Origin: Escherichia coli
GTDB taxonomy: Bacteria > Pseudomonadota > Gammaproteobacteria > Enterobacterales > Enterobacteriaceae
Assembly (NCBI RefSeq): GCF_048403405.1
Contig: NZ_CP183129.1
Length of the DNA: 64,000 nucleotides
Direction: 5' to 3' (one strand)
Below, piece by piece: positions 15,001 through 21,000 of the stretch. The first letter of the stretch is position 1; the number at the start of each line of letters is the position of its first letter. The position numbers were made by a program.

Positions 15001-18000
15001 AAAATCGGCATTAAGCAGGCGACAATTTCCAATTTCGAAAACAACCCTGACAATACCACGCTGACGACATTTTTTAAGATTTTACAGTCGCTTGAACTCT
15101 CAATGACGCTATGCGACACGAAAAATGCCTCGCCAGAATCAACAGAACAGCAAGATCTGGAGTGGTAATGCCTAAACTTGTCACTTGGATGAACAACCAG
15201 CGGGTAGGCGAGTTAACGAAGTTAGCCAATGGCGCGCACACCTTTAAGTATGCACCGGAGTGGTTAGCCAACCGTTATGCCAGACCGTTATCACTTTCGC
15301 TGCCATTGCAGAGGGGGAATATCACCTCTGATGCTGTATTTAACTTCTTCGATAACCTGCTACCCGATAGCCCGATTGTACGTGACCGGATCGTTAAACG
15401 TTATCATGCTAAATCCAGACAACCGTTTGATTTATTGTCAGAAATAGGGCGAGATAGCGTTGGTGCCGTAACGTTATTACCCGAAAATGAAACCATAACG
15501 CGCCCGATAATGGCATGGGAACAGCTCACTGAAGCCAGGCTTGAAGAAGTATTAACGGCTTATAAAGCAGATATCCCTCTGGGCATGATTAGAGAAGAAA
15601 ATGACTTTCGCATCTCGGTTGCTGGCGCGCAGGAGAAGACAGCGCTGCTCAGAATAGGCAATGACTGGTGCATTCCGAAAGGAATAACGCCGACGACGCA
15701 CATCATTAAATTACCGATTGGCGAAATCAGGCAGCCCAATGCGACGCTCGATCTCAGCCAAAGCGTTGATAATGAGTATTACTGTCTGCTGCTGGCGAAA
15801 GAACTTGGGTTGAATGTGCCGGACGCAGAAATCATTAAAGCGGGAAATGTGCGCGCGTTAGCGGTCGAACGTTTTGACAGGCGTTGGAATGCTGAGCGAA
15901 CGGTTTTACTTCGCTTGCCACAGGAGGATATGTGTCAGACATTCGGTTTACCTTCATCGGTGAAATATGAATCAGATGGAGGCCCAGGCATCGCGCGGAT
16001 CATGGCTTTTTTGATGGGGTCCAGCGAGGCGCTGAAAGATCGCTATGATTTTATGAAGTTTCAGGTGTTCCAGTGGTTGATTGGCGCAACGGATGGCCAT
16101 GCAAAAAACTTCTCCGTATTTATTCAGGCTGGCGGCAGTTATCGACTCACGCCATTTTACGACATCATTTCAGCATTTCCGGTATTGGGTGGCGCAGGAA
16201 TACACATCAGCGATCTCAAACTAGCAATGGGGCTTAACGCATCCAAAGGCAAAAAAACGGCAATCGATAAAATTTATCCGCGACATTTTCTGGCGACAGC
16301 AAAGGTGCTGAAATTTCCGGAAGTGCAGATGCATGAAATCCTGAGTGACTTTGCCAGAATGATTCCGGCAGCACTGGATAACGTGAAGACTTCATTACCG
16401 ACAGATTTTCCGGAGAACGTGGTGACGGCAGTTGAAACCAATGTGTTGAGGTTGCACGGCCGGTTAAGCCGAGAATACGGTATTAAGTAAGATATGGGGT
16501 TTTGGTCGTTGTTAATGAGCAGGACAATCATGACCGCCAACGACTGGATTCTCCCTTGGTTTATGTTGGTGCGCATAATGTATATTATGTTAAATGTGGT
16601 GGGTTTGTTCTTAAGTTCATGTGTTCCGCTCTTTCAGTAGCTTAACTGATGAATCAGTCAGCAGCTCTTGCCGTGCAAGCTACGCGGCGGTTCGTACCAG
16701 ATTGGCCACCTCCATCTCCTGGTTCGCTTTCCCCTCCCCCCGGTAAACCTCACCCAACGTTAATTAATGATGTCAGTATGTGGGCGCTATCCTCGTATGT
16801 AAAATCCACTGACGATTACGCCCATCTGTGAAAAAAAACTCACAATGCCATTCGATGCATCTCCATACTGAACGAGGCGTTATCGTCTTTATCGCCCCGT
16901 AGTGGATATCAGAAAATCAATCAGGGCCTTCACTCTTTTCGTTTTACCCGCGTTTTTGGGGTAATAGAGATACACTGGCGGGTAGGTTTTCCAGTAGCTC
17001 TCCATCACCGGAATAAAACGCTCCCTGTCCGGCTGTAACTGCCAGACAGGCTCAAACTTTCTAACTGTATACCCGGATATTGCTGACAGAATTCTGCCAT
17101 CGCAGGCTTAAGAATTAACAGGTAGGCAAAACGCGAGAGCGTAATTCGCACCATCCCAGAGGGCTCCTGATGCTGGTCGCGAATGCTTTCAAGTGAGTTT
17201 TCCAGCGACTCCACCGCCGCAGCGGTCTGTTCCAGCAATAATTGACCGGTTTCCGTCAGCTCTATACGGCGGGTCGTACGCACAAAAAGCGGATGGCCGA
17301 TATACTCTTCCAGCAGCTTTAGTGCATTGCTGACGGAGGGAGGCGTAATTTCCAGTTTCCTTGCGGCTGCCGAAATATTGCCCTCCCGCGCAATGCTCTG
17401 GAAGATGCGAATCTGGTTATAAAGAGCGTTATTCATAATGTTTTCCTAAGCAATTCTCGCCTGATTATTAAGTACAGTCTAAAAATGCTTAAGTCAATGA
17501 CCCTCTAATCTTCCTGAAATACGCCTCTTATACTTTAGTCTCTTTCTACTACGACCTGAGTTCAGGAGACTATGATGCGAATTTTATGTCTGGATATCCC
17601 TGCCCCTGGAGCATCGCTGGAGAAATATGCTCCGCACCTCAACGCTGAAGCGCTGCACGCCTGGGGATTGTATAAATCAGGCTTCATCCGCGACATCTAC
17701 TTCCGTCAGGACAGACCTGGCGTCGCTATTTTTCTTGAATGTGACTCTGTCGATGAAGCGATGAACGTTATGGCCGAATTCCCGTTGGCAAAAGCAGGCT
17801 TACTAAGCTTCGAGTGTATACCGCTTGGCTCCTTTATTAACTGGGAAAATCTCTTCGCCGATGAATTTAAAAATAAAGAGTGAGGACCGATATGAAACCT
17901 GCATATAAACCAGTGCTATGTGTCGTTTCCAGCCATCCGATTAAAGGCGCATCCGGTGTACCAACCGGTTTTTTCCTGGCCGAGCTGACTCATCCGCTGA

Positions 18001-21000
18001 AAGTACTGGAAGATGCCGGAATAAAAACAACAATAGCCAGTATTCGCGGGGGGCAGCCACCGGTGGATGGATTTGACCTCAGCGACCCTGTTAACGCCTG
18101 GTACTGGAACGAAACCGATTTTCAGCAGCGCCTGGCAACAACACCTGCGTTATCCGAGCTGAAAGGTGCCGATTACAGCGCAGTTTTCTTTGCAGGTGGT
18201 CATGGGACCATGTGGGATTTCCGTGATAATCAGGATGCCCAGCGTATTATCCGCGAAGTGTATGAAAGTGATGGGATTGTCTCAGCCGTCTGCCACGGGC
18301 CTGCGGCATTGGTTGACGCAAAACTCAGTAGCGGCGAATACCTGATAAAAGGGAAAAATGTGGCGGCCTTTACCAACAAGGAAGAGGAAGAAGTTCACAC
18401 AACAGATGTGGTTCCCTTCCTGCTTGAAACCGCACTTCGCGAGCATGGTGCGCTTTATCATGAAGCTCCAAACTGGTCTGAAAACGTGGTTACCGACGAT
18501 CGCCTTATCACGGGGCAGAATCCCGCTTCAGCACATGGGGTTGGTGTGGCGCTGTTAAATGCACTCCGCCGGACAGCTTAATTAATTCATCGTTACTCAC
18601 CTTACTTGGCCGGTTTAAGTCAGCCACGATCCGGCCTTTTTTCAGGAGCTGAATATGAAAACACTACCTCCAGTCGCACTAGGTACATGGTCCTGGGGCA
18701 CAGGCTTTGCCGGCGGCGACACCGTCTTTGGTAATCATCTTTCTGATACTCAGATGGCAGAAGTGTTCACTGCGGCCATGAGTAAGGGCCTCAATCTCTG
18801 GGATACCGCAGCAGTATATGGTATGGGGAGTTCCGAGACTGCGCTGGGAGCATTAGTCCGTCAGTTTCCCCGCGAGAACATAATTTTATCCACCAAATTC
18901 ACGCCGCAGATTGCGGACAAGCAGTCTGCGCAGCCTGTCAGCGATATGCTTGAGGCCAGCCTTGGGCGCCTGGGCGTGGACGCGATTGATATCTACTGGA
19001 TCCATAATCCCCTCGACGTCGAAAAATGGACACCAGGACTGATCCCACTTTTACAAAGCGGTAAGGTAAAACGCGTAGGTGTTTCCAACCACAATCTGGC
19101 ACAAATCAGACGCGCCAATGAAATCCTTAACGCTTCCGGTTATTCCCTCAGTGCAGTACAAAATCACTACAGCCTGCTCTATCGCGCTTCTGAAGAGGCC
19201 GGGATCCTTGATTATTGCCGACAAAATAACATCACGTTCTTTGCTTACATGGTCCTGGAGCAAGGCGCGCTCAGTGGTCGTTATGATTCAAATCATCCCA
19301 TGCCTGCCGGGAGTGGCCGGGCCGAAAGTTATAACGCAGTACTGCCGCAGATAGAAAGACTAACCGCCGCCATGAAAAAAATGGGAGCCGAAAGGAATGC
19401 CAGCGTGGCACAGATAGCCATCGCATGGGCTATTGCGAAAGGTACCCTTCCCCTCGTTGGTGCGACTAAAGTCCATCACGTTCTGGACGCCGCCTGCGCT
19501 TCAGACATCCAGTTACGCGATGAGGAAATCATCCTGCTGGAACAACTCGCCGCAGAGACCAGAGTGGATACACGAGGCGCCTGGGAAAAACCGATGGTGT
19601 AAAGCCCGTCCGGAACAGACTGTCATGAATGACACACACGAACGGGCTGTTCCGGGTGATTCTAATCTGTATCACTTTTACTGCTTTGTATGAATGGTGA
19701 GAATATGAAAATCATTTGCCTCGAAGAACATTATCTCGACAGCGAGTTAGGGCGAGCGTGTATGCCTGTTGCGCTTGAGCAGGCACCTTTCCTTGGCGAC
19801 TGGGGGAAAACCGTCGCTGATGGTCATAATCCTGACCGACTCCCTGCTTTCCCGCTTTAATAAACTGAATGTGCCACTCTATCTTCATCCCGGGTTACCG
19901 CTTAAAAGCGTACAGCAGGCCTACTTCACGGGCTTCAGCGCAGAGGTCAACGCCAGGCTTTCTATGTTTGCCTGGGGCTGGCATCACGAAGCGGGGATCC
20001 ATTTGTTGCGGCTGATGTTATCGGGCGCATTTGATAAATATCCCAACCTGCAGGTAATCAGTGGCCACTGGGGGGAGATGTTACCCTTCTGGCTCCAGCG
20101 TCTTGATGACAGCCTACCACTGGCTGCAACGGGTCTGTCACGCACGCTAACGAGAACCTTCCAGGAACACGTTTACGTTACCCCGTCATATGCTAACACT
20201 GCCGCACTTCCAGTTTATCTACGCGTTAATGGGTGCTGAAAGGATCCTGTTCTCCGTCGATTATCCCTATCAGACCCTGGACGGTGTAAAAACCTTTATA
20301 GACAGTCTGCCCGTCAACAAGGCTGAAAAAGAGGCCATCGCGTTTCGCAATGCAGAACGTTTACTGGGCATCACGGTTTAGTTCACCGTTTCATGATGAT
20401 TGAGCACATTGTGATCAGCCGACAATTATTAGTTTTTGCCTAAAAGTGAATGAGCCTTTACTGCTCTAAAAAAATAATGTTGTCACTCTATACTGGATTT
20501 AATATTCACCAAAGATGTTTAACTGATTGAAATGAAAAATATCCTTGTTATTTCAGGTCATCCTGAGCTTACCCATTCCGTCGCCAATGCCACTATTCTT
20601 GATGAAGTGGAGACCGCCCTTCCCGATGTTGAGATTCGTCGTCTGGACAGGCTCTATCCGGATGGCAAATTCAACATCGCGGCGGAGCAGGAAAGCCTGC
20701 TCAGGGCCGATGTGATTGTCTGGCAGTTCCCTTTTTCCTGGTATGGGCTGCCAGGATTAATGAAAAAATGGCTGGACGAGGTCTTTGTTCACGGCTTCGC
20801 GCATGGCTCAACGGCGAAACTGGGCGGTAAAAAGCTGATCCTCTCCTTTACAACGGGAGCGCCAGAGGAGCTCTATACCGTCGACAGTTTCTTTGGCCAT
20901 ACCATTGAAGAGTATCTAATTCCGTTCGAGACCACAGCAAAACTGTGCAATCTTGAGCTGCTGGAGCCGGTTTATACCTGCGGTATCAGCTATGCCGATC

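What the first reader, a model, noticed from the sequence alone, without database searches (positions are those of the whole stretch)
17572..18581. Tightly linked small (possibly MLI-like) protein and DJ-1/PfpI protein
A 103-aa protein is followed 8 nt later by a DJ-1/PfpI-family protein with a conserved Cys-His elbow (AVCHGP). DJ-1/PfpI proteins include glyoxalases and deglycases; pairing with a small isomerase-like partner could mark a two-step electrophile-processing unit. The family call for the small protein is weak and made by eye.
Basis: inference. Interest (0 to 1): 0.4.

Follow-up and report, generated by a model that had tools for sequence, protein, structure and literature searches.

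The report
Uncharacterised small barrel protein plus DJ-1
A real, highly conserved but unstudied 102-residue protein with a muconolactone-isomerase-like fold sits 8 bases ahead of an Hsp31-type DJ-1 enzyme. Both belong to a widespread LysR-controlled gene cluster that looks like a quinone and reactive-aldehyde detoxification unit, so the finding is modestly interesting rather than extraordinary.

Summary
The window is E. coli chromosome. A small ORF (17572-17883; conserved start 17575, 102 aa) is followed 8 nt later by a 229-aa DJ-1/PfpI gene (17892-18581) with the AVCHGP elbow.

The "MLI-like" guess is right at fold level only. The protein hits no Pfam or NCBIfam model, but its confident AF2 model is closest to ClcF/muconolactone isomerase and to YciI proteins. 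More distant relatives weakly hit Pfam MIase and YCII. Family-invariant Glu25 aligns with MIase Glu27. It is an uncurated sister family, labelled "superoxide dismutase" in some records without any support I could find.

DJ-1 keeps the Cys-His-Glu triad of yeast Hsp31/Glx3-type glyoxalase III.

The pair co-occurs widely: 55 of 78 species loci and 27 of 34 genera. It is not an exclusive pair. The conserved unit is a divergent LysR, a WrbA/KefF-like quinone reductase, the small protein, then optionally an Ahr-like aldehyde reductase or DLH hydrolase, DJ-1, Amidohydro_2 and ABM. Flavoprotein (67/78) and LysR (69/78) are more constant partners than DJ-1.

Best reading: a cofactor-free acid/base enzyme in a quinone/carbonyl stress operon. 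Its biochemistry is untested. In this strain the LysR gene carries a 352-bp deletion.

The parts
16889..17436 (-). Remnant of the divergent LysR-family regulator gene. It carries a 352-bp internal out-of-frame deletion (junction 17057|17058) that leaves the HTH domain plus a short tail.
   Evidence: Pfam HTH_1 1.4e-22. Alignment to the intact 900-nt gene of E. coli TUM14771. The closest complete genomes listed all carry the intact gene.
17468..17482 (.). Candidate LysR binding site. A T-N11-A dyad (TTA-N9-TAA) sits inside a block that is nearly invariant in 12 Enterobacterales, about 66 bp upstream of the inferred transcription start.
   Evidence: Intergenic alignment. Function is inferred from the canonical LTTR site architecture (general knowledge).
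17529..17534 (+). Invariant TATACT, a candidate -10 element of the operon promoter. No good -35 is present, as expected for an activator-dependent promoter.
   Evidence: Invariant in 12 genera. The generic sigma-70 scan did not call it, so this is inference.
17575..17883 (+). Small protein of 102 aa (103 aa if started at 17572). It belongs to an uncurated family of the dimeric alpha+beta barrel superfamily, closest to MIase/ClcF and YciI. Family-wide conserved residues are Glu25, Trp30, Arg39, Asp46, Glu55 and Pro70.
17892..18581 (+). DJ-1/PfpI superfamily protein of 229 aa, of the short Hsp31 type. The Cys134-His135-Glu165 triad aligns with yeast Hsp31 Cys138-His139-Glu170.
   Evidence: PF01965 at 60 bits. 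PDB 4p5p 1.9e-48, 1u9c 4e-41, yeast Hsp31 6e-29, Candida Glx3 1e-27.
18608..18642 (+). GGCCGG...CCGGCC hairpin followed by U6, between DJ-1 and the next gene. It is a possible weak terminator or attenuator.
   Evidence: Fold gives -18.9 kcal/mol for the 86-nt stretch but z is only -1.6. The terminator scan did not call it because of its 17-nt loop.
18655..19602 (+). Aldo/keto reductase, 315 aa.
   Evidence: PF00248 2.7e-57. Weakly resembles methylglyoxal reductase YdjG, well below cut-off.
19690..20381 (+). Amidohydro_2 (ACMSD-type metal hydrolase/decarboxylase family) gene, broken into three ORFs. It is probably a pseudogene in E. coli.
   Evidence: An intact orthologue of about 344 aa follows DJ-1 in 43 of 78 loci.
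20532..21104 (+). Flavodoxin_2 NAD(P)H oxidoreductase, KefF-like (quinone reductase type).
   Evidence: PF02525 1.4e-40. NCBIfam KefF 149 bits, below the cut-off of 210.
21107..22126 (+). Second aldo/keto reductase, 339 aa.
   Evidence: PF00248 2.8e-69.
22242..22967 (+). Tandem ABM-domain protein (annotated as a putative quinol monooxygenase) with a signal-peptide-like N-terminus.
   Evidence: PF03992 x2. RefSeq product name. The signal peptide was judged by eye.
22983..23786 (+). Tandem CMD (carboxymuconolactone decarboxylase/AhpD-like) protein with a signal-peptide-like N-terminus.
   Evidence: PF02627 x2. PcaC-like but below cut-off.

Best explanation
The two genes are the first two cistrons of an operon controlled by a LysR-type regulator. 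The operon sits on an accessory E. coli island between hipA and a fimbrial cluster, and its job is most likely to detoxify quinones and reactive carbonyls.

Shown:
- The small protein is a 102-aa member of an uncurated, very conserved family of the dimeric alpha+beta barrel superfamily, nearest to muconolactone isomerase/ClcF and YciI/TftG.
- The DJ-1 protein is a short Hsp31-type enzyme with an intact Cys134-His135-Glu165 triad.
- Across 34 genera the conserved order is a divergent LysR, a WrbA- or KefF-like quinone reductase, the small protein, an optional Ahr-like aldehyde reductase or DLH hydrolase, DJ-1, Amidohydro_2 and ABM.

Inferred:
- The small protein is a cofactor-free acid/base catalyst (proton-shift isomerase, tautomerase or eliminase), like its structural neighbours.
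- It would use a charged cluster built from Glu25 (aligned with the MIase/ClcF Glu27), Arg39, Asp46 and Glu55.
- Its substrate would be a quinone-, hydroquinone- or carbonyl-derived intermediate made or consumed by the neighbouring reductases.
- DJ-1 would act as a glutathione-independent glyoxalase III or deglycase in the same stress response.
- The 8-nt spacing, with the ribosome-binding site overlapping the stop codon, would give co-translation in Enterobacterales.
- In this particular strain the activator gene is deleted internally, so the operon is probably no longer inducible.
For: Fold:
- The AF2 model has pLDDT 92 and a b-a-b-b-a-b plus C-terminal helix topology.
- The top 16 Foldseek hits are all ClcF, TftG or HI0828, and MIase 1mli has TM 0.68/0.72.

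Sequence:
- Of 60 distant relatives, 40 weakly hit Pfam MIase (best 2.4e-8) and 44 hit YCII (best 2e-6).
- hhalign of the family against a MIase profile gives probability 61% and E 8e-5.
- Both HMMER and hhalign align Glu25/Gly36/Arg39/Glu55/Pro70 with MIase Glu27/Gly38/Arg41/Asp57/Pro72.
- The PDB holds "ClcF E27A with substrate", which marks Glu27 as the residue mutated to trap substrate.

Conservation: 24 invariant positions across orthologues from Enterobacterales, Burkholderiales and a myxobacterium plus unclassified metagenome sequences.

Cofactor independence: secreted and tandem-duplicated family members exist, which argues against dependence on a cytoplasmic cofactor.

DJ-1: the triad alignment to yeast Hsp31, and the E-values to Glx3.

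Context:
- define the neighbourhood.
- A divergent LysR is present in 69/78 loci and a flavoprotein in the operon in 67/78.
- DJ-1 is linked in 55/78 loci (29 adjacent, 23 with one gene between).
- Amidohydro_2 is present in 43/78 and ABM in 35/78.

Promoter region: a conserved LTTR-type box, a -10 element and a ribosome-binding site.

LysR deletion in the window.
Against: - No biochemical or expression data for any family member were found.
- The window protein itself hits no curated model. YCII gives E 0.25, and the profile matches to solved MIase/YciI sequences are marginal (E 0.03 to 1.6).
- The hhalign probability of 61% is only moderate, and the MIase profile was built from closely related Pseudomonas sequences.
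- The neighbouring families (AKR, ABM, CMD, DLH, Amidohydro_2) are functionally broad, so "quinone/carbonyl detoxification" is a context inference.
- Cys5 and Asp7 are invariant in the orthologue group but not in the wider family, so the catalytic set is uncertain.
- The island is decaying in E. coli: Amidohydro_2 is fragmented, and LysR is deleted in this strain.
Confidence: 0.45

Rival explanations
1. The small protein and DJ-1 form a dedicated two-enzyme unit in which the small isomerase-like protein prepares or finishes the substrate of the DJ-1 glyoxalase/deglycase.
For: - The spacing is 7-14 nt in nine Enterobacterales loci (8 nt in the window itself).
- DJ-1 is adjacent in 29 and one gene away in 23 of 78 loci, across 27 of 34 genera.
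- Three of four sampled DJ-1 relatives at 62-73% identity have the small gene upstream in the same operon, including Rodentibacter, where the regulator is of a different type.
- Identity to the E. coli copy falls in parallel for the two proteins.
Against: - 23 of 78 loci have the small gene without DJ-1.
- Klebsiella, Kosakonia and P. agglomerans place a KefF-like reductase directly after the small gene.
- Several Burkholderia, Dyella, Trinickia and Rhodoferax loci hold only LysR + WrbA-like + small gene.
- The DJ-1 clade also occurs without the small gene, as in Kingella potus.
- Outside Enterobacterales the spacing is 53-313 nt, or another gene intervenes.
Confidence: 0.2
2. The small protein is not an enzyme. 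It would be a small ligand-binding or partner-binding barrel, for example one that sequesters a reactive quinone or hydroquinone, or one that modulates the flavoprotein or the LysR regulator.
For: - Sequence conservation is very high over nearly the whole chain: 60-70% identity between alpha-, beta- and gammaproteobacteria. This fits multiple protein interfaces.
- Its position next to the regulator and the flavoprotein is constant.
- An invariant Cys5 in the orthologue group could be a quinone-reactive thiol.
Against: - The nearest structural relatives (ClcF, MIase, TftG) are enzymes.
- A family-wide conserved acidic/basic cluster includes the counterpart of the MIase/ClcF Glu27.
- Secreted tandem versions exist, where LysR and the flavoprotein partners are absent.
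- Cys5 is not conserved in the wider family.
Confidence: 0.2
3. The small protein is a superoxide dismutase, as many NCBI/UniRef records call it. It would remove superoxide made by redox cycling of quinones.
For: - The name "superoxide dismutase" is attached to the identical E. coli sequence and to many orthologues.
- The genomic association with quinone reductases makes superoxide a plausible by-product.
Against: - There is no hit to any Pfam or NCBIfam model, including every SOD family.
- The fold is MIase/YciI-like, which by my own knowledge differs from the Fe/Mn, Cu/Zn and Ni SOD folds.
- No conserved His/Cys metal-ligand set exists in the wider family.
- The same sequence is "hypothetical protein" in RefSeq.
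- No paper supporting the name was found.
Confidence: 0.05

Closest known systems
Muconolactone delta-isomerase / 5-chloromuconolactone dehalogenase ClcF (Pfam MIase, PF02426)
   Same: - Same size and the same b-a-b-b-a-b plus C-terminal helix fold.
- The conserved Glu, Gly, Arg, acidic residue and Pro align (E25/G36/R39/E55/P70 with E27/G38/R41/D57/P72).
- No cofactor is known for the family.
   Different: - 15-16% identity.
- The window protein is not detected by the Pfam model.
- There is no catechol/beta-ketoadipate gene context.
- It has its own strongly conserved motifs (YFRQDRPG, PLAKAGL).
- The oligomeric state is unknown.
YciI family (PF03795), e.g. TftG 5-chlorohydroxyhydroquinone dehydrochlorinase and HI0828
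   Same: - Best marginal sequence match to a solved structure: TftG E 0.03, over the b3-a2-b4 region with a shared "P..KAGL" motif.
- TftG acts on a hydroquinone. From my own knowledge, its product is then handled by a quinone reductase, which resembles the flavoprotein partnership seen here.
   Different: - Below the Pfam cut-off (12 bits against 24).
- The Asp of the YciI "DPF" motif is Phe69 here.
- There is no chlorophenol pathway context.
Short Hsp31-type DJ-1 proteins: yeast Hsp31 (YDR533c), Candida Glx3, and the uncharacterised 4p5p and 1u9c
   Same: - About 225-240 aa, without the extra domain of E. coli HchA.
- Cys-His-Glu triad conserved.
- E 1e-27 to 2e-48.
   Different: - Activity is not measured for this clade.
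- It is far below the HchA equivalog cut-off (67 bits against 365).
- It is encoded in an operon with the small barrel protein.
Bacillus subtilis AdhR regulon (adhA-yraA) and the quinone-responsive regulons YodB/MhqR (recalled from the literature, not tested here)
   Same: These regulons pair a Zn-dependent aldehyde reductase with a DJ-1/PfpI protein, and include flavin quinone reductases and DLH-type hydrolases, in responses to carbonyl and quinone electrophiles.
   Different: - The regulator types differ (MerR/MarR there, LysR here).
- No MIase-like small protein is known in those regulons.
- The genes are not orthologous.

Membership tests
Muconolactone isomerase family (Pfam PF02426) | Match to the family HMM above the gathering score | tested here: not met
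   The window protein has no MIase hit at E<=0.1 or E<=1. 40 of 60 distant relatives give only weak hits, best 2.4e-8.
Muconolactone isomerase family (Pfam PF02426) | Ferredoxin-like b-a-b-b-a-b fold with a C-terminal helix, superposable on MIase/ClcF | tested here: met
   [not shown]
Muconolactone isomerase family (Pfam PF02426) | Conserved Glu27 (mutated in PDB entry 3zo7, "ClcF E27A with substrate") | tested here: met
   Near-invariant Glu25 aligns with MIase Glu27 in HMMER and hhalign. Alignment confidence is moderate (probability 61%).
Muconolactone isomerase family (Pfam PF02426) | Encoded with catechol/beta-ketoadipate pathway genes (catA, catB, pcaD and the like) | tested here: not met
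   None of these genes occurs in the window or in the 80 related loci. The neighbours are LysR, quinone reductases, DJ-1, AKR, Amidohydro_2 and ABM.
YciI family (Pfam PF03795) | Match to the family HMM above the gathering score | tested here: not met
   E 0.25, 12.3 bits against a cut-off of 24.
YciI family (Pfam PF03795) | Conserved Asp of the "DPF" motif (part of the His-Asp dyad proposed for TftG; this role is recalled from the literature) | tested here: not met
   In the TftG alignment the motif "NDPFTKAGL" pairs with "EFPLAKAGL", so the Asp position is Phe69.
DJ-1/PfpI superfamily (Pfam PF01965) | HMM match above cut-off, and a nucleophile-elbow Cys | tested here: met
   60 bits against a cut-off of 26.6. 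Cys134 lies in AVCHGP and aligns with Cys138 of yeast Hsp31.
Hsp31-type glyoxalase III (yeast Hsp31 / Candida Glx3 class) | Cys-His-Glu catalytic triad | tested here: met
   Cys134-His135-Glu165 align with Cys138-His139-Glu170 of 1qvv. The triad residue numbers of yeast Hsp31 are from my own knowledge.
Hsp31-type glyoxalase III (yeast Hsp31 / Candida Glx3 class) | Glutathione-independent conversion of methylglyoxal to D-lactate | not testable with these tools
   Needs an enzyme assay.
E. coli HchA (NCBIfam NF003168 equivalog) | Score above the equivalog cut-off | tested here: not met
   66.7 bits against 365.
Superoxide dismutases (Fe/Mn, Cu/Zn, Ni families) | Homology to a known SOD family, or a conserved set of metal ligands | tested here: not met
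   No Pfam or NCBIfam hit. The fold is MIase/YciI-like. No conserved His/Cys set exists in the wider family.
LysR-type regulated divergent operon | Divergently transcribed LTTR gene with a T-N11-A site upstream of the target promoter | tested here: met
   A divergent LysR is present in 69/78 loci. A conserved TTA-N9-TAA lies at 17468-17482. In this window the LTTR gene itself is truncated. Binding was not tested.

The most novel reading that the evidence does not exclude
The small protein founds a new enzyme family that works with WrbA/KefF-type quinone reductases. It could be a cofactor-free hydroquinone/quinone tautomerase or eliminase, or a metal-free scavenger of semiquinone or superoxide, which would incidentally vindicate the orphan "superoxide dismutase" label. 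That would add an unrecognised step to bacterial quinone detoxification in the many plant- and soil-associated proteobacteria that carry it.
Probability: 0.25. Interest if true: 0.6.

Novelty: new variant of a known kind. Interest (0 to 1): 0.35.

Why it matters
The family is large: 1354 representatives of 50%-identity clusters match it. It is strongly conserved, absent from Pfam and NCBIfam, and named inconsistently in public records as "hypothetical" or "superoxide dismutase".

It occupies a fixed position in a conserved LysR-controlled cluster with quinone reductases, an Hsp31-type DJ-1 and aldehyde reductases. The cluster is found in Rhizobium, Pseudomonas, Xanthomonas, Burkholderia, Pantoea, Serratia, Pectobacterium and some E. 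coli.

Working out its activity would do three things. It would assign a function to a whole operon. It would correct a propagated annotation. It would give a defined physiological setting for a bacterial Hsp31-type DJ-1 enzyme. For E. coli itself the island is accessory (444 of 5426 complete genomes) and partly decayed, so the local importance is small.

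Tried and rejected
- Direct family assignment of the small protein failed. Pfam, NCBIfam and phmmer against the PDB gave nothing significant.
- Profiles gave only marginal PDB sequence matches.
- The AFDB Foldseek library was not available.
- Five literature searches found nothing relevant. They covered the "superoxide dismutase" name, the RefSeq accession and the operon, and ClcF/TftG mechanism papers.
- A greedy longest-ORF gene call was unreliable in high-GC loci: the small ORF was lost in 32 of 80 loci. I replaced it with cross-locus ORF clustering plus tblastn.
- A first DJ-1 count from ORF clusters undercounted, giving 28 loci with none. The tblastn count superseded it.
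- The MIase homologue search returned only close Pseudomonas sequences, so the MIase profile was shallow.
- The generic promoter scan did not call the operon promoter and the terminator scan did not call the post-DJ-1 hairpin. The fold of that hairpin is not significant, z -1.6.
- I rejected "chance ORF", "member of the MIase family" and "SOD".
- I did not try a fused-chain structure prediction of small protein + DJ-1, because the tool returns no inter-chain confidence.

Full report
**Where the window comes from.** The window is E. coli chromosome. Region 16500-19700 is 100% identical to several complete genomes, such as TUM14771 and MS 69-1. The island is accessory: 444 of 5426 complete genomes cover at least 80% of that query. 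It lies between hipBA and a fimbrial cluster. RefSeq annotates the small gene as a hypothetical protein (WP_001221046.1) and the next gene as "type 1 glutamine amidotransferase domain-containing protein".

**Observation.** Both ORFs are present as described.
- The small ORF runs from 17572 to 17883.
- An alignment of the upstream region from 12 enterobacterial genera shows that the conserved start is ATG 17575, giving 102 aa. It lies 6 nt after AGGAG at 17564-17568.
- The DJ-1 gene starts at ATG 17892, exactly 8 nt after the TGA, and a GAGG overlaps the stop codon.
- AVCHGP is at residues 132-137.

**What the small protein is.**
- It matches no Pfam or NCBIfam model and no solved structure by sequence.
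- It is nevertheless real. Orthologues at 60-98% identity occur across Enterobacterales, Rhizobiales, Burkholderiales, Pseudomonadales, Xanthomonadales, Caulobacter, Acinetobacter and a myxobacterium. They share 24 invariant positions.
- An exhaustive profile search finds 1354 cluster representatives at E<=1e-3. These include tandem-duplicated and signal-peptide-bearing forms.
- The AF2 model is confident (pLDDT 92) and has a b-a-b-b-a-b plus C-terminal helix topology.
- Foldseek agrees: the top 16 hits are ClcF, TftG or HI0828, and MIase 1mli has TM 0.68/0.72.
- At sequence level, 40 of 60 distant family members weakly hit Pfam MIase and 44 hit YCII.
- The family profile marginally matches TftG (E 0.03), MIase (0.68) and ClcF (1.6).
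- hhalign against a MIase profile gives probability 61% and E 8e-5.
- Both aligners pair the family-wide conserved Glu25, Gly36, Arg39, Glu55 and Pro70 with MIase Glu27, Gly38, Arg41, Asp57 and Pro72. The PDB entry "ClcF E27A with substrate" marks that Glu as functionally critical.
- The Asp of the YciI DPF motif is Phe69 here.

The protein still belongs to a separate, uncurated sister family.

**The "superoxide dismutase" label.** Many NCBI and UniRef records give this name to orthologues, and even to the identical E. coli sequence. Other records say "hypothetical". I found no SOD homology, no conserved metal-ligand set and no paper. I treat it as an unsupported propagated name.

**DJ-1.**
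- It scores 60 bits against PF01965.
- The best solved relatives are the uncharacterised 4p5p (1.9e-48) and 1u9c. After them come yeast Hsp31 and Candida Glx3, then E. coli HchA much further away.
- Cys134-His135-Glu165 align with the yeast Hsp31 triad Cys138-His139-Glu170.
- It is far below the HchA equivalog cut-off.
- It is therefore a short Hsp31-type candidate glyoxalase III or deglycase. Its activity is untested.

**Co-occurrence.**
- A genome scan returned 109 species loci, of which 80 were kept. tblastn and cross-locus ORF clustering with Pfam labels give the neighbourhood.
- Among 78 evaluable loci, an orthologous DJ-1 (53-95% identity) is the next gene in 29. It is one gene further in 23, further downstream on the same strand in 1, on the opposite strand in 2, and absent in 23. 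It is linked in 27 of 34 genera.
- Spacing of 7-14 nt is an enterobacterial feature. Elsewhere the gap is 53-313 nt.
- In the reverse direction, three of four sampled DJ-1 relatives (62-73% identity) have the small gene upstream in the same operon. These are Rodentibacter, Dickeya zeae and Novosphingobium. Kingella potus has only AKR-DJ-1.
- The DJ-1 family is much larger than the small-protein family, with more than 7600 clusters at E<=1e-20.
- More constant partners are a divergent LysR (69/78) and a flavoprotein in the operon (67/78). Outside Enterobacterales the flavoprotein is WrbA-like and sits immediately upstream. In Enterobacterales it is KefF-like and sits downstream.
- Amidohydro_2 follows DJ-1 in 43 loci and ABM occurs in 35. 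An Ahr-like aldehyde reductase (25 loci) or a DLH hydrolase (11 loci) often sits between the small gene and DJ-1.
- Minimal loci contain only LysR, a WrbA-like gene and the small gene.

**Regulation.**
- The intergenic region holds a nearly invariant block with a T-N11-A dyad (17468-17482). It also holds an invariant TATACT (17529-17534) and the ribosome-binding site. This is the layout expected of an LTTR-activated promoter, which is an inference.
- In this window the LysR gene has a 352-bp out-of-frame internal deletion. The closest complete genomes do not share it.
- The Amidohydro_2 gene is fragmented both in the window and in the one reference genome whose annotation I examined, TUM14771.

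**Interpretation.** The best-supported reading is a LysR-controlled quinone/carbonyl-electrophile detoxification operon. In it the small barrel protein is a cofactor-free acid/base enzyme, and DJ-1 is an Hsp31-type glyoxalase or deglycase. The narrower "two-step pair" idea, a non-catalytic binding role and the SOD label are the rivals. Nothing here measures activity, so the mechanism remains an inference. It rests on the fold, the conserved residues and the gene context.

Noticed in passing
window 16889-17436 (junction 17057|17058): The LysR regulator gene of the island carries a 352-bp out-of-frame internal deletion in this window. The closest complete E. coli genomes have the intact 900-nt gene, so the deletion looks private to the source strain or is an assembly artefact.
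   Followed up: yes
window 19690-20381: The Amidohydro_2 gene is split into three ORFs, both here and in RefSeq genome TUM14771, where it is annotated as separate fragments. Intact orthologues of about 344 aa follow DJ-1 in Rahnella, Pantoea, Serratia, Pseudomonas, Rhizobium and others. It is probably a pseudogene in E. coli.
   Followed up: partly
window 17460-17540: A nearly invariant intergenic block across 12 enterobacterial genera (ATTATTAAGTACAGnCTAAAnAT..CTTAAGTCAAT) contains a T-N11-A dyad. An invariant CTAATCT and an invariant TATACT follow. Together they are a candidate LysR operator and promoter.
   Followed up: partly
window 22242-22967 and 22983-23786: The tandem-ABM and tandem-CMD proteins at the end of the cluster both begin with signal-peptide-like sequences (judged by eye). 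This suggests periplasmic redox proteins in an otherwise cytoplasmic-looking operon.
   Followed up: no
window 18608-18642: A GGCCGG/CCGGCC hairpin with a 17-nt loop and a U6 tract lies between DJ-1 and the aldo/keto reductase gene. It could be a weak terminator that makes the small gene and DJ-1 a sub-operon, but it is not significant against shuffles (z -1.6).
   Followed up: partly
proteins P0012, P0059, P0264 and relatives: The identical E. coli small protein and many orthologues are named "superoxide dismutase" in some NCBI and UniRef records and "hypothetical protein" in others. No homology or literature basis for the SOD name was found.
   Followed up: partly
L017 (Collinsella MAG contig, 1136 bp) and P0004 (Astraeus odoratus): Sequences 98-100% identical to the E. 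coli small protein appear in an actinobacterial MAG and in a fungal assembly. This is probably contamination of those public records.
   Followed up: no
proteins P0121-P0126, P0134, P0135, P0205, P0249: The wider family includes tandem-duplicated proteins, which would be single-chain barrels, and members with N-terminal signal peptides. Some relatives therefore act outside the cytoplasm.
   Followed up: no
window 9271-16490: Upstream of the island lie an 1806-aa ECSE_1600-family autotransporter and the hipBA toxin-antitoxin pair. In K-12-like genomes, by my recollection, hipA is followed directly by the yneL/fimbrial region. The detoxification cluster would therefore be an insertion or deletion polymorphism at this site.
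   Followed up: no
L088 4147-7864 (Rodentibacter): In Pasteurellaceae the small gene, DJ-1, Amidohydro_2 and ABM are kept as a block. The divergent regulator there is an XRE/HTH_3 protein instead of LysR, so the enzyme block moves independently of its regulator.
   Followed up: partly
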